Assembly (NCBI GenBank): GCA_002269645.1
Contig: NIVC01001063.1
Location: 62,001-126,000, forward strand
Origin: Macrostomum lignano
Lineage: Eukaryota
Length of the DNA stretch: 64,000 nt
Direction: 5' to 3'
Shown one piece after another: positions 41,000-58,957 of the stretch. A model generated the notes under the pieces. The model searched no databases. It was given only the letters and a program-made list of their open reading frames with translations, and was not told the DNA's origin. Every line of letters starts with the position of its first letter. Position 1 is the first letter of the stretch. The position numbers and the translations under genes were made by a program.

Positions 41000-41557
41000 T
41001 CAAGTTGCTATGGAATATCTGTTGAGTCGCCTCTTACGACAAGCACAGAGAGCTGTGGACTTATTCTTTCCCGAGTTCCACACGGGTGTTAGTGAGTTAG
41101 CGGGGTCCAAGGTTATAGGGGTGGGTAGTTGGGGAAGTGTCTGTAGTTTGTGTTTCAGCGTGAGAAGTAGCAATATGTTTGGACGGTGTTTTTGTATAGG
41201 ATTTTTAGTAGTATTATTAATGCAAATATAATATAAATCAAATTCGGGATTGGCATACATAAATTCTAATAACTTTTGAATATTTCTAAATGGACTTGAT
41301 GAATTATCAGTATTATCAGAAGATTTTAACTCTAAAGCAACTTTTCTTTCAGTATGAATTAAATCAATTTTCTTTATTTTTTCAAAACCAAAATGTTCAA
41401 TAGCTAATAATTCATAAAGAGATCCAAGTCTCATTTGAATAGTTTTAATACGGTTTGCAATTATTAATTCATCTTGAAATATTTTATTTAGTATTCTATC
41501 CGACCCAATCTTTTCATAAATAGGTTTACAAATACAGTCTTTTATTGTTATATCCAT
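41000..41557 (-). CDS. PD-(D/E)xK nuclease, type II restriction endonuclease-like (Eco47II-like); C-terminal part probably chimeric
   Basis: RLGSLYE...IDLIHTERKVALELKSSDNTDNSSS has the D-x-E(L)K plus NTxNS pattern. Base composition shifts from AT-rich to GC-richer near 41190. Confidence 0.6.
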   Translation of the reverse strand: MDITIKDCICKPIYEKIGSDRILNKIFQDELIIANRIKTIQMRLGSLYELLAIEHFGFEKIKKIDLIHTERKVALELKSSDNTDNSSSPFRNIQKLLEFMYANPEFDLYYICINNTTKNPIQKHRPNILLLLTLKHKLQTLPQLPTPITLDPANSLTPVWNSGKNKSTALCACRKRRLNRYSIAT

Positions 41558-41719
41558 TTTTAAAGAAGTAAAAAATTTAACACCTAAAGTCCAGTATGTC
41601 CAGCGGCTTTCGCAGCGGCTAAAACAAGTTTTCGCGGAGTCTTTAATCCTTGTCCAAAGGTTTTATTTAATTCCCTATATATTTGGTAGTTTTTGCTCTA
41701 GTATCCAGATTATTTTCAA

Positions 41720-42375
41720 TAAACTCTCTAGCTTTCTTAATATCATCTTGATTATATCGTTCTACACTAGATGGATTCTCAGTTGGGTGTTTTATAATAT
41801 AGAATGCGTTTTTTCCTAATTCATCTTTTAATCCTTTTATATCAAAATTTTTACTACCAATTGTAATATTATTCTCAGACTCATTTTCAACGCGGATAGA
41901 TTTAGGAACACCATTTTTTCAAATAACTTTGGAAAAAACTTTCACCACCCTCGGTTTCAATCTCACCCTCGGTGTCAATATCTTCCTCCTCACTCTCTTC
42001 CTTAGACCCACCAAAATCTTTTTTAAATTCCTCAATGGCTTGAACTGATCTAGACAATTCTTTATTAAACTCCTCCACTTAAATCTCATTATTTTTTACA
42101 GAATCAAACAAATAATTAATTTTTTTATTAGTTTTCCCCAATAAATTCATAAAATCGGTTTTACTAAGTAAACCACTTTTGATGTTATCAAATATTAATT
42201 TCTTTTCTATTTCTCCTAATTTCCCAACAATAGGATTAACAAAAGGAGCAGCAAATCTTTCACCAGCTAACTGTATTCCTAGTTTTCTTTTTTGTAAATC
42301 TCTAACAAAATCGGAATATCTTTGCTTCTCTTTATAAATCGCCAACTCTTCATCAACGTCCATAAACTGACTCAT
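41720..42375 (-). pseudogene. Frameshifted uncharacterised viral gene divergent from MCP
   Basis: MSQFMDVDEELAIYKEKQRY...; continues in other frames with an acidic tract (SKEESEEEDIDTEGEIETEGG) to about 41720. Confidence 0.55.
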
Positions 42376-42408
42376 TTTTAACATAAAAAACTTTTTTATC
42401 TTAAAAAA

Positions 42409-43890
42409 ATGGCGGAGACAAAAACCATTTGGAGTGATAAATTTCATTTCAAAAAACATCGTCAGTATATTAATGAGATCAGAGCAAGAGATTTAAATTA
42501 TACCCTACCAACAAGCGATAATTCAAATAATTTTACTACGGGAACTGTAACTTTTGACATTGGTGCAACCAGTAGCATATTGGATATGAAAAATGCGTTT
42601 TTCCGCGTTAGGTGGTTGTATACCAGAAATGATGGAACAGCACTTACAGCCCCCGATATCGCCGACCGCGCCGGCATCATTATAGAAAATGATTGGTTTT
42701 ATAAATGCTTTTCCCAAGCGCAACTAACTGTTAACGGAGCCGAGGTTGAGACATCTACAAACCCAGCAGAGATTAATGGAGTTTTGAAACATTTAAATTA
42801 TACATTTTTATCAAAACAGGTTGGTGATAATGTTGGATGGATGCCAGATAAGGGAGACGGTGGAGCAATAAATTTTCCCGATGTAGCACCAGCAGCCGGT
42901 GCAGATACCGCCGCTCTAATTAATTATCTTAATACCAACATAGTTCCGGTTGTAACAACCCTAACCAACACCAAAAATATGAACACCGGTTTTATAGACC
43001 GTCAGAAAAAATTCCCAGTCGCGGTTTTAACCACCGCAACCGCTTATGAGCAAGACTTTTCAATCTTTCCACTATTTGGGTTCTTCTCACCAAATCGGGT
43101 ATGGAAGGGATTAAAATTTGGGGTACAGTTGCATATATCTGGTGGATATCAGCCTAGGATACTTTTTGGAAATTCAACCTCAACCGATATAGCAGTTCGA
43201 ATAGTTTCAATTCAATTAGTCGTGCAAACTATTGAGGTAACGGCTCCGCTTCTAAAATATATAGATGATCAGATAGTAGTAGACCAGGATATATTTTATT
43301 TGAATCGCCGCCACTTTATGCGAACCATCAATAACAATCAGGATTCATTCCAGTGGCAAATCATACAAACAAAACGTCGGGTGAGGTATATTTTTGTTTG
43401 GTTTAAAATAACAAACAGAACTAGCAAAAGAGGCAACGGGGATTTATATTGGATTCAATCAGGCGACGTAGCAGCACAGGCAGCCACCGCAAGTGACAAC
43501 GCCCTATCGGCGATTACCGCATTTAATCTCCAGAACATCCGCCTGCAGGTTGATGATCAATATTATCCTGTTAAAAACCCCCTTAATCTAAATATTGGAA
43601 ATAATGATGTTAATGATTTGATAAAATATTATCAGGATAATGTCAAAAACGAAGCCTATGCCGTTCCTCAATATACTCCCACAGAGTTTCTAAACATTCA
43701 TCCGGTTGTTGTTTTTGATCTAAGCGCACAGAAAGAAAATGTAGCCAATATTGGTTTGAACTATATGTTAAAGATTAATAAAACCGGAAATCAGGCTGTA
43801 GACGCTCACGCATTGTTTCTAGAGGAGTATATGGCGATTGCTAAAGCCGACGGCACCGTTGTTCAGGACGCGCCAATAGGAAAATCCTAA
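42409..43890 (+). CDS. Major capsid protein (double jelly-roll, Polinton/adintovirus hexon-like), 493 aa, intact
   Basis: Beta-rich. N-terminal TVTFDI...LDMKNAFFRV, F.Q..LTVNG.EVE, PLFGF, RYIFVWF and ..VFDLS patterns typical of Polinton MCPs. Directly upstream of the ATPase and minor capsid genes. Confidence 0.8.
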   Translation: MAETKTIWSDKFHFKKHRQYINEIRARDLNYTLPTSDNSNNFTTGTVTFDIGATSSILDMKNAFFRVRWLYTRNDGTALTAPDIADRAGIIIENDWFYKCFSQAQLTVNGAEVETSTNPAEINGVLKHLNYTFLSKQVGDNVGWMPDKGDGGAINFPDVAPAAGADTAALINYLNTNIVPVVTTLTNTKNMNTGFIDRQKKFPVAVLTTATAYEQDFSIFPLFGFFSPNRVWKGLKFGVQLHISGGYQPRILFGNSTSTDIAVRIVSIQLVVQTIEVTAPLLKYIDDQIVVDQDIFYLNRRHFMRTINNNQDSFQWQIIQTKRRVRYIFVWFKITNRTSKRGNGDLYWIQSGDVAAQAATASDNALSAITAFNLQNIRLQVDDQYYPVKNPLNLNIGNNDVNDLIKYYQDNVKNEAYAVPQYTPTEFLNIHPVVVFDLSAQKENVANIGLNYMLKINKTGNQAVDAHALFLEEYMAIAKADGTVVQDAPIGKS

Positions 43891-43919
43891 AAAAATAATA
43901 TCTAAATTATTTCCTTAAA

Positions 43920-57460: not shown

Positions 57461-57871
57461 CTAAAACTTCTTTAATCCTTTTCCGCCTTTAATTGAGGTT
57501 AACATTTTATTAAAATCTTGGATATCTTTATTGCTCAATGGGTTACTTTTAGTAGGTGTTTCAGTAGGTTGTGCGGCTTGAGCAACTTTTTGTGCTAGCT
57601 TTAAATCTTTTATTGCTTTTATTTGCGAGAGGGTGTCGTTAAATTCTCTCAATTTCTTGAGCTCTTCTGCTGCCTTAGCTGCTTCTATTCCACCCTTGAC
57701 TGCGTTGGTTACAGAGCCTGCTGCTGAGCCTGCTTGTGCTATTAGTGGCATATTATCTTTTATTGTATTTGCTGCAGCGCCTATTATGTCGAAAAGACCC
57801 TCACCTCTGTATTCTACTGGGTCTCCTATTTGTAATTCATTCAGATTGTATACTTGCGTATGGTGTGTCAT
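57461..57871 (-). CDS. Small viral protein with GEGLFD and GGKGL motifs (core/structural candidate)
   Basis: YRGEGLFDIIG..., Ala/Gly-rich helix, C-terminal KGGKGLKKF. Confidence 0.6.
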   Translation of the reverse strand: MTHHTQVYNLNELQIGDPVEYRGEGLFDIIGAAANTIKDNMPLIAQAGSAAGSVTNAVKGGIEAAKAAEELKKLREFNDTLSQIKAIKDLKLAQKVAQAAQPTETPTKSNPLSNKDIQDFNKMLTSIKGGKGLKKF

Positions 57872-57960
57872 TTTTGTCTATTTTTAGTAACAGAAAAATG
57901 AATGCGTGAACACACAAAAGAATAGGCTAGACTCCACAGGAACATAGTGTTGCTAGAATT

Positions 57961-57985
57961 GGCGCTTTTCTTTATAATTATAAAG
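57961..57985. promoter_or_regulatory. Candidate viral promoter: GCGCTTTTCTT(T)ATAA motif with palindromic CTTTATAATTATAAAG
   Basis: Perfect 16-bp TATA palindrome at 57970-57985. The motif recurs at about 58088. Upstream of the minus-strand core/pPolB gene block. Confidence 0.3.
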
Positions 57986-58225
57986 ATTGGCGCTAGTTGA
58001 GTTGCCCCATTTATCTATGAAAAAGGAACAATGAGGAGTAAGAGAGTAAATAATTTTGTTAAGTGTTAGTTTAGTTCGAATCAGTTAGCGCTTTTCTTTA
58101 TAAATATTATACATTATAAAACTGTTGATGGTGGTTAAAACGGTGTGGAATTTTAAACTGTTATTGAATAATGTCTAAAACAAGCGATTCAGTTATTATC
58201 AGTTATTTAAAACAAATAAAATCAA

Positions 58226-58957
58226 TCATTTCCGGTGGCTAATAGAAACTTTCCGGCTGCTCCCCACCACTGTGTCGTCATCGCGTCCTTTGAATTGTGG
58301 CGTCAGCGGTGTCTTCAACATCGAGCAAAAGTCTTCGTCTGAGTTTGCAGCAGACTCAATGGTGGTTTTATACTGCAAAATTGTGTTGTATGCGTATGGC
58401 GCGAAACGAAGAGCCGGATAGTCTTCACAAAGTTTGTGGAAAGTTTTCATTCGTGAAACATAGTTGTCGCCGCACTTAAGACGACTTTGAATTTCCTGAT
58501 TGCTCATAGTCTCGGATAGAAACGCGATGGTGTCGGCTTTTTTGGCGCCAATCACTCCCTTAATCTCATCGACCTTTTCTTCAATGATGCATAGATCCGC
58601 GTATAATCTAGTGGCGGTGTCGTCCGATGTGATTTCAGCCTTAATCAGCTCCTCCAGCTCTCGATAGTCTGTCTTGAAATGAATTGCCTCAGTGTGATGC
58701 TTAGATAGCCACGCTTTCAAGTTGACAATGAATCTTGCACTTTGTTCGGCTTTGTTTGATTTCTTCTTGTTGCTACTAGATTCGTCATCCTCAATCGTCT
58801 TATCGATGGCTTGATGAACAAGGCTTACCAAAGTATCATTGAAGGAACCGCGTTTTTCTTTTGGAAGGCGATTCAAAAATAGAGCAATTGATGTATTGCT
58901 TTTCTTTGTTAGACTCTTCAAATTGCTCACAATGCTTTCAATTTCCTTGTCGTTCAT
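58226..58957 (-). CDS. Hypothetical 243-aa protein, possible C-terminal HTH
   Basis: Intact ATG ORF; MSNQEIQSRLKCGDNYVSRMKTFHKL resembles a helix-turn-helix. Confidence 0.55.
   Translation of the reverse strand: MNDKEIESIVSNLKSLTKKSNTSIALFLNRLPKEKRGSFNDTLVSLVHQAIDKTIEDDESSSNKKKSNKAEQSARFIVNLKAWLSKHHTEAIHFKTDYRELEELIKAEITSDDTATRLYADLCIIEEKVDEIKGVIGAKKADTIAFLSETMSNQEIQSRLKCGDNYVSRMKTFHKLCEDYPALRFAPYAYNTILQYKTTIESAANSDEDFCSMLKTPLTPQFKGRDDDTVVGSSRKVSISHRK

What the first reader, a model, noticed from the sequence alone, without database searches (positions are those of the whole stretch)
41000..58957. Endogenous Polinton/Maverick-like virus with a capsid module but no integrase, protease or TIRs in view
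Seen: MCP, ATPase and minor capsid on the plus strand face a minus-strand block of core genes and pPolB. No retroviral-type integrase other than the gypsy's, no adenain-like protease and no matching long TIR pair were found. Known: canonical Polintons carry rve integrase, a cysteine protease and TIRs with 6-bp TSDs, while some PLVs lack integrase. Inference: either a deleted Polinton or a divergent lineage, possibly an uncharacterised flatworm adintovirus-like family.
Basis: partly seen in the sequence, partly recalled or inferred. Interest (0 to 1): 0.7.

Follow-up and report, generated by a model that had tools for sequence, protein, structure and literature searches.

The report
Broken endogenous Polinton virus copy
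This is a decayed copy of a Polinton, a DNA virus that settles in eukaryote genomes; its integrase, protease and end repeats are missing here, most likely because this copy lost both arms, so it is an ordinary relic although its capsid protein has few close relatives.

Summary
Observation confirmed. Window 41.2-57.9 kb holds a double-jelly-roll capsid gene (intact), A32-type ATPase, a probable minor capsid gene, a Beta/pPolB2-type polymerase and Gly-x-Gly-rich core proteins; most genes are broken and a young gypsy (4.7 kb) sits inside. Integrase and adenain profiles built from relatives find only the gypsy integrase; no TIR pair exists. Public contigs show many diverged sister copies over the core and far fewer beyond both edges, plus gypsy-free and internally deleted forms. 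Relatives with the same capsid family mostly carry integrase (8 of 10) and protease (9 of 10), and the core proteins keep the motifs seen in protease-bearing relatives. Best reading (0.68): an arm-truncated dead copy of a multi-copy Beta-type Polinton family. No complete sister copy was seen, so a helper-dependent or integrase-less family is not excluded; one TIR-bounded relative without either gene exists (L031). The capsid clade is small and unnamed (3 relatives at 42-52%). Host not determined.

The parts
41000..41662 (-). Restriction-type (PD-(D/E)XK-like) nuclease ORF; its last ~65 codons run into the GC-richer block on the left
   Evidence: RE_Eco47II E 0.0004, below cut-off; GC step 0.46 to 0.22 at ~41200; single-sequence model unusable, pLDDT 34.5
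41667..42372 (-). Broken gene of unassigned family, in several frames
   Evidence: ORF pieces; no Pfam or PHROG match
42409..43890 (+). Major capsid protein, double jelly roll, intact, 493 aa
43920..44689 (+). A32/FtsK-type packaging ATPase, split over two frames
44710..45525 (+). Probable minor capsid protein (penton); profile match ends before the family's C-terminus
   Evidence: family of 13 ORFs in relatives, E 3e-34; identity as penton inferred; Pfam and PDB blank
45482..45880 (+). Small ORF with no cysteine, in the slot where relative L055 has its protease; cannot be a cysteine protease
45861..46481 (+). Conserved membrane-type Polinton ORF (label 'PW' recalled)
   Evidence: match to L055:1918-2598, E 0.00045
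46476..47772 (.). Three or four small or broken ORFs of no known family
47752..51664 (-). Protein-primed B-family polymerase, Beta/pPolB2 type with an Endonuclease VII (HNH) insert and an N-terminal OTU-like motif; broken into at least 5 segments
   Evidence: Endonuclease_7 E 3.9e-9, DNA_pol_B_2 E 0.002; 5881 longer homologues, best 57%; OTU label taken from PMC8502044 and not tested by fold
51731..52660 (-). Core-protein gene (pX-like) with 9 GG/G-x-G + hydrophobic motifs, in one frame split by a stop
   Evidence: 8 motifs in the 201-aa part versus 1.75 in shuffles, 0 of 2000 shuffles reach it (motif chosen after seeing the sequence); same motifs in protease-bearing relatives; match to L130 core protein E 0.0045
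52707..57423 (+). Young gypsy retrotransposon inserted into the element (gag, protease-RT-RNase H-integrase)
   Evidence: 176-nt LTRs 99.4% identical; 4-bp target duplication; Pfam; gypsy-free joint in 2 of 4 runs
57461..57877 (-). Second small Gly-motif protein (cupiennin-like label from PMC8502044, by resemblance only)
   Evidence: 3 motifs versus 0.37 in shuffles, p 0.009; weak match to L064:9892-10194, E 0.011
57899..59510 (.). Dispensable stretch holding a 243-aa ORF of no known family (58226-58957, -) and 122-bp tandem repeats
   Evidence: joint 57898 to 59511 in X1 and X5 (table 5c); no family
59568..59856 (.). 290-bp element with 83-nt imperfect inverted ends; cuts the second copy inside the polymerase C-terminus; not the family's TIR
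   Evidence: low summed depth in the bin that reaches its left end
59857..64000 (-). Second, more decayed copy of the polymerase and core-protein side, same orientation, running off the window
   Evidence: four blocks 83-95% identical to 48053-51933; dN/dS 0.15
38855..40999 (-). Three tandem intronless double-RING genes, GC about 0.5; a separable cassette, membership of the Polinton uncertain
   Evidence: Sina_RING E 2e-7 to 3e-4; paralogy; block 40326-41195 lies in a different context in organism B (record 9); no homologue at E<=0.001 among 86 candidates

Best explanation
A dead, arm-truncated copy of a multi-copy Beta-type (pPolB2) Polinton family. The parent virus would copy its linear DNA by protein priming with pPolB, pump it with the A32-type ATPase into a double-jelly-roll capsid, mature its core proteins with an adenain-like protease at Gly-x-Gly sites, and enter chromosomes with an rve integrase acting on TIRs (mechanism from established Polinton biology; genes for the first two steps shown here, the last two inferred). 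This copy kept a 12-kb core (16.7 kb with the gypsy) and lost or exchanged what lay beyond about 41.2 kb and 57.9 kb, where integrase, protease and TIRs most likely stood; it then gathered frameshifts, stops and a gypsy insertion. A second copy, cut on its left, abuts it.
For: Shown: summed contig depth in X1 is 5,219-26,963 over 42.3-52.3 kb against 87-250 for contigs identical to this locus, and falls to 621-940 right of 58.3 kb and 331-1,198 left of 41.0 kb; X5 shows the same shape (the tool warns that summed depth is no copy number, so read as 'many diverged copies'). Deleted forms of the element exist (joints skipping 7,519 and 1,343 nt). dN/dS 0.15 over 429 polymerase codons and 56 core-protein codons between the two copies in the window, so the family was under selection while it spread. 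The left edge coincides with a GC step, the end of the nuclease match and a breakpoint in organism B. Of 10 related loci of 8 kb or more with the same capsid family, 8 have integrase and 9 protease (profiles were built from these loci); in loci fetched later, 2 of 2 with this capsid family have both. The protease family is adenain-like (E 5e-8) and the window's core protein keeps the motifs found in those relatives. The polymerase falls in a 47-row clade with L027, which has rve next to pPolB; L055 (53% identical, partial) has the protease. Partial copies are common: none of 10 long loci from one host-derived record set has integrase and ATPase together.
Against: No sister copy with integrase, protease or TIR was seen: contigs were short, only 24 of 798 loose ends and 15 of 33 joints were listed, none pointing to such genes, and only 39651-59650 was laid. 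The slot between minor capsid gene and the next conserved gene, which holds the protease in L055, holds an unrelated cysteine-free ORF here inside the high-depth core. L031, a TIR-bounded pPolB relative, has neither gene. A drop in depth at 88% likeness can also mean fast-evolving flanks, not missing ones. The three nearest capsid relatives have no retrievable context.
Confidence: 0.68

Rival explanations
1. The whole family is non-autonomous: it keeps polymerase and capsid module but borrows integrase and protease from another Polinton family in the same genome.
For: Twelve contiguous kb of high-depth core lack both genes; protease-type motifs are conserved under dN/dS 0.15 although no protease is in view; the slot used by the protease in L055 is filled by another ORF.
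Against: Borrowed integrase still needs TIRs, and none is present, so this copy is truncated anyway; gene order varies among relatives, so the slot proves little.
Confidence: 0.17
2. An integrase-less virus lineage that entered the germ line many times through host repair, perhaps helped by its restriction-type nuclease, sometimes as head-to-tail neighbours.
For: Nuclease ORF at the left edge; two same-orientation copies without TIR or target duplication; L031 is complete by its 133-bp TIRs and lacks integrase while L038 and L050, which share its capsid family, carry it; PMC8502044 reports integrase-less MELD viruses of Hydra and Anelosimus.
Against: L031 has another capsid family; those MELD viruses have adenovirus-like PolB without OTU; the two copies differ by 5-17% and a small inverted-repeat element separates them, unlike a fresh concatemer; the nuclease match is below cut-off and its bin has lower depth than the core; many dispersed copies are easier to get with an integrase (inference).
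Confidence: 0.1
3. The missing ends are an assembly artefact: collapsed or misjoined repeat copies.
For: Near-identical contigs carry small gaps against the window and best runs hold only about half of its words; no listed piece spans the stretch.
Against: Contigs with 0-2 differences cover several parts, including 41459-42258 and 41681-42160 at the left edge; the gypsy has a clean target duplication.
Confidence: 0.05

Closest known systems
Beta adintoviruses (Betadintovirus, Eupolintoviridae, Amphintovirales; PMC8502044; taxonomy)
   Same: Divergent PolB with only a weak PF03175 match, DJR hexon, FtsK-type ATPase, pX-like and cupiennin-like small proteins, degraded germ-line copies
   Different: No rve, adenain or ITR in this copy; capsid only about 20-25% identical to the integrase-bearing relatives fetched; no named reference virus was in my trees
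pPolB2-class Polintons of nematodes, oomycetes and molluscs (10.1101/2023.08.22.554363)
   Same: Polymerase with an HNH/Endonuclease VII insert; size range 13-25 kb with TIRs fits a 12-kb core plus lost arms
   Different: No fusogen, integrase or protease; host and capsid clade differ; class assignment rests on the insert and on recall, not on a tree with their sequences
Polinton-like viruses (PMC11161782)
   Same: No rve integrase in view
   Different: PLVs mostly lack pPolB and use other replicases or tyrosine integrases; this element has pPolB and no tyrosine recombinase match in Pfam
Unnamed metagenomic relatives L027, L055, L064, L130 and L031
   Same: Same polymerase type; L064 and L130 share capsid, ATPase, minor capsid and core-protein families
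   Different: L064 and L130 have integrase and protease; L031 lacks both but has another capsid family

Membership tests
Polinton / Eupolintoviridae | Protein-primed B-family polymerase | tested here: met
   broken in this copy
Polinton / Eupolintoviridae | [quoted passage not shown] | tested here: met
Polinton / Eupolintoviridae | Packaging ATPase | tested here: met
Polinton / Eupolintoviridae | [quoted passage not shown] | tested here: inconclusive
   conserved family match, but no Pfam, PDB or fold proof
Polinton / Eupolintoviridae | rve integrase of its own | tested here: not met
   only the gypsy integrase in 64 kb; not testable beyond the window or in sister copies
Polinton / Eupolintoviridae | Adenain/Ulp1-like protease | tested here: not met
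   profile validated against adenain; substrate-type motifs present
Polinton / Eupolintoviridae | TIRs and 5-8 bp target duplication | tested here: not met
Polinton / Eupolintoviridae | Integrase, protease and TIRs in other members of the same genomic family | not testable with these tools
   no genome held; contig laying lists only part of the loose ends
Beta / pPolB2 class | Divergent PolB with HNH (Endonuclease VII) insert | tested here: met
Beta / pPolB2 class | N-terminal OTU-like domain | tested here: inconclusive
   Cys-Trp motif aligned with relatives; not folded
Beta / pPolB2 class | Placement with named reference viruses in a tree | not tested
   no named reference sequence was available from the tools
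Polinton-like viruses | Lack of pPolB, or a tyrosine integrase or helicase-type replicase | tested here: not met
   pPolB present; no such Pfam match in ORFs or read-through frames

The most novel reading that the evidence does not exclude
A high-copy animal Polinton family with its own capsid clade that keeps polymerase, capsid module and protease-site core proteins under selection but has no integrase or protease of its own, spreading by a helper Polinton or by nuclease-assisted host repair and carrying a swappable RING-ligase cassette.
Probability: 0.2. Interest if true: 0.6.

Novelty: new member of a known kind. Interest (0 to 1): 0.3.

Why it matters
As read here it adds one unnamed capsid clade to the Beta-type Polintons and shows a family that spread recently under selection in this host; the missing genes are a property of one broken copy. 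If the longest sister copies also lack integrase and protease, it would be a rare case of a helper-dependent or repair-integrated Polinton in a multi-copy state, which would make trans-complementation between Polinton families testable.

Tried and rejected
No genome for the window, so sister copies could not be read. The 290-bp inverted-ended element at 59568-59856 was considered as the family's TIR (it starts with the hexamer recalled for Polinton ends) and rejected: its two arms face each other over 125 nt, it has no target duplication, it cuts the second polymerase inside its C-terminus, and depth there is low. Unknown ORFs as a hidden protease or recombinase: no Pfam, PHROG, Atlas or profile support; the 243-aa ORF does not match L027:263-559 (E 1.8). 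Nuclease fold: unusable model. Context of the nearest capsid relatives: three scans of viral contigs with the capsid or window polymerase found nothing, one was not run, cluster look-ups gave no names. A third dN/dS block was out of frame (6 stops) and is dropped. Expression: no RNA holder is on record; X7 is only guessed to be RNA and covers genes and spacers alike, so nothing is claimed. Earlier findings: five look-ups, all empty. Literature: no paper with adintovirus + flatworm or maverick + platyhelminthes + polinton + capsid; searches with a guessed host genus gave one off-topic listing each; no flatworm term in the one supplementary file held for PMC8502044; planarian Polintons are in print (PMC8532177 passages). 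Repbase entries could not be compared.
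Full report
What is there. The AT-rich stretch 41.2-52.7 kb and 57.4-57.9 kb is a Polinton core. On the plus strand lie an intact 493-aa major capsid gene (42409-43890), an A32-type ATPase in two frames (relatives' profile E 9e-17), a probable minor capsid gene (E 3e-34 to a 13-member family of relatives; its identity is inferred) and a conserved membrane-type ORF. The capsid model (37-row alignment, pLDDT 84.6) matches mavirus, iridovirus and Sputnik capsids (best E 2.5e-16) and viral models including an adintovirus protein. 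On the minus strand lie a polymerase of about 1,200 codons in at least 5 aligned segments, with an Endonuclease VII insert (E 3.9e-9), and two small-protein genes rich in Gly-x-Gly motifs. A gypsy element fills 52707-57423; its 176-nt LTRs are 99.4% identical and it has a 4-bp target duplication, so it is a late insertion into the virus.

The absences are real within the window. I fetched 102 loci with related polymerases, clustered the ORFs of 31 of them and identified an rve family and a protease family that matches adenain at E 5e-8. Profiles of both, run over all six frames of the 64 kb with X at stops, found only the gypsy integrase (E 4.9e-10, next 3.0) and no protease (best E 0.045 at 391-483); leave-one-out controls recovered 19 of 20 integrases and 11 of 11 proteases. 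Pfam on 27 read-through frames of the gaps and flanks gave nothing better than E 0.05. The best inverted match between the two sides is 13 nt, E 0.76.

A second copy of the polymerase side begins at 59857 in the same orientation and leaves the window; four blocks are 83-95% identical to the first copy. It is cut inside the polymerase C-terminus by a 290-bp inverted-ended element. Between the copies dN/dS is 0.15 over 429 polymerase codons (Fisher p 7e-14) and 0.15 over 56 core-protein codons (p 3e-4); a third block was out of frame and is dropped. Left of the capsid gene lie a weak restriction-type nuclease gene and three RING genes.

It is one of many copies. Contigs of four public runs (at most four studies, two species labels) were laid on 39651-59650 at 88% likeness. 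In X1, contigs identical to this locus have depth 87-250, whereas summed depth is 5,219-26,963 over 42.3-52.3 kb, 2,469 at 57.7-58.3 kb, 621-940 beyond, and 3,866, 2,832, 1,198 and 331 in the four bins leftward; X5 has the same shape. The tool warns that summed depth is no copy number; I read it only as many diverged copies over the core and few at the edges. Joints show a gypsy-free form, internally deleted forms (7,519 and 1,343 nt skipped) and a form without 57899-59510. In organism B the block 40326-41195 stands in a 4,462-nt contig unlike the window on both sides; 41195 is also where GC steps from 0.46 to 0.22 and where the nuclease match ends. So the RING block is a separable cassette and the left edge looks like a junction. 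Small indels between the window and much of the laid depth suggest that some gene breaks belong to this copy or to the assembly and not to the family. Against my reading: the contigs are short, only 24 of 798 loose ends and 15 of 33 joints were listed, and none shows an integrase, protease or TIR; fast-evolving flanks would also lower the depth.

What relatives carry. Among 34 loci of 8 kb or more, 25 have integrase and 12 protease; of the 10 with the window's capsid family, 8 and 9 (many contigs are partial, and the profiles were built from these loci). In 17 long loci fetched afterwards, both loci with this capsid family have both genes; of 4 with any capsid match, 3 have integrase and 2 protease. 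In a FastTree tree (116 rows, 447 columns, midpoint root) the two window copies group with L025 and P0099 (0.92) inside a 47-row clade (0.99) holding L027, which has rve beside its polymerase; L064, with integrase, protease and the same capsid family, joins at 56 rows (0.98). L055 (53% identical, too short for the tree) has the protease. The window's 201-aa core-protein part has 8 GG/G-x-G + hydrophobic motifs against 1.75 in shuffles; I chose the motif after seeing the sequence, but core proteins of protease-bearing relatives carry the same runs. That these are adenain sites is inferred from recalled adenovirus and ASFV protease specificity. Counter-example: L031 is bounded by 133-bp TIRs and shows neither gene, though with another capsid family.

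How divergent. The polymerase has about 36 unnamed relatives at 50-57%, several in 12-92-member clusters on contigs of up to megabase size. The capsid is the unusual part: 70 hits in 1.84 billion representatives, three full-length at 42-52% and the next at 28% or less; the four form a clade with support 1.0 in a 49-row tree. None has a name or retrievable context.

Mechanism and verdict. Most likely (0.68) a dead copy of a Beta/pPolB2 Polinton family that lost both arms; replication and capsid genes are shown, protease and integrase steps are inferred. Rivals: a helper-dependent family (0.17), an integrase-less lineage fixed by host repair (0.10), a misassembly (0.05). This copy fails three defining features of Polintons (integrase, protease, TIR), so I file it as a relic that works like, and descends from, a Beta-type Polinton, not as a complete member. 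Papers seen: 10.1101/2023.08.22.554363 parts 1-2 of 7; PMC8502044 parts 2-3 of 6, section 3.1, passages and a search of its one held supplement; PMC11161782 passages; PMC8532177 passages, which show planarian Polintons are known. Degraded Beta adintoviruses in germ lines are described in PMC8502044. My searches found no description of this family, but subscription papers, Repbase and bioRxiv supplements were out of reach and may hold it. The host is not determined. Interest 0.3; a new member of a known kind.

Noticed in passing
window 59857-64000: Second same-orientation copy of the polymerase and core-protein side, with two insertions of about 175 and 440 bp, running off the window.
   Followed up: yes
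window 38855-40999: Three tandem, intronless double-RING genes without database homologues at E<=0.001 (third gene searched); the block 40326-41195 sits in another context in organism B.
   Followed up: partly
window 57899-59510: Dispensable stretch with a 243-aa orphan ORF; a contig also joins 58971 back to 58039, a hint of a tandem 933-bp unit elsewhere.
   Followed up: partly
window 59568-59856 and about 35965-36073: Two short elements with inverted ends that begin with a similar short triplet run; the second was seen by eye only.
   Followed up: partly
   Followed up: partly
window 1-37037: Dense minisatellite landscape (most of the 61 rows), an inverted pair of 176 nt at 10599-11321 and inverted pairs between 11-231 and 13708-13917.
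   Followed up: no
L031 1-13235: pPolB virus contig bounded by 133-bp TIRs with no integrase or adenain match, while L038 and L050 of the same capsid family have rve beside pPolB.
   Followed up: partly
L103, L112, L115, L131, L138, L139, L141, L146, L147, L152: Ten long loci from one record set: integrase in 5, ATPase in 3, protease in 1, none with integrase and ATPase together, none with a capsid match; L147 and L152 have 1,656-bp inverted repeats. Partial copies, or a split arrangement worth a look.
   Followed up: no
L103-L153: 51 loci with Polinton-type polymerase in a prokaryote genome collection, all titled as metagenome-assembled genomes; probably eukaryotic or viral carry-over.
   Followed up: no
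L064 3898-5103: Integrase- and protease-bearing relative with a poxvirus intermediate transcription factor homologue (E 2e-20).
   Followed up: no
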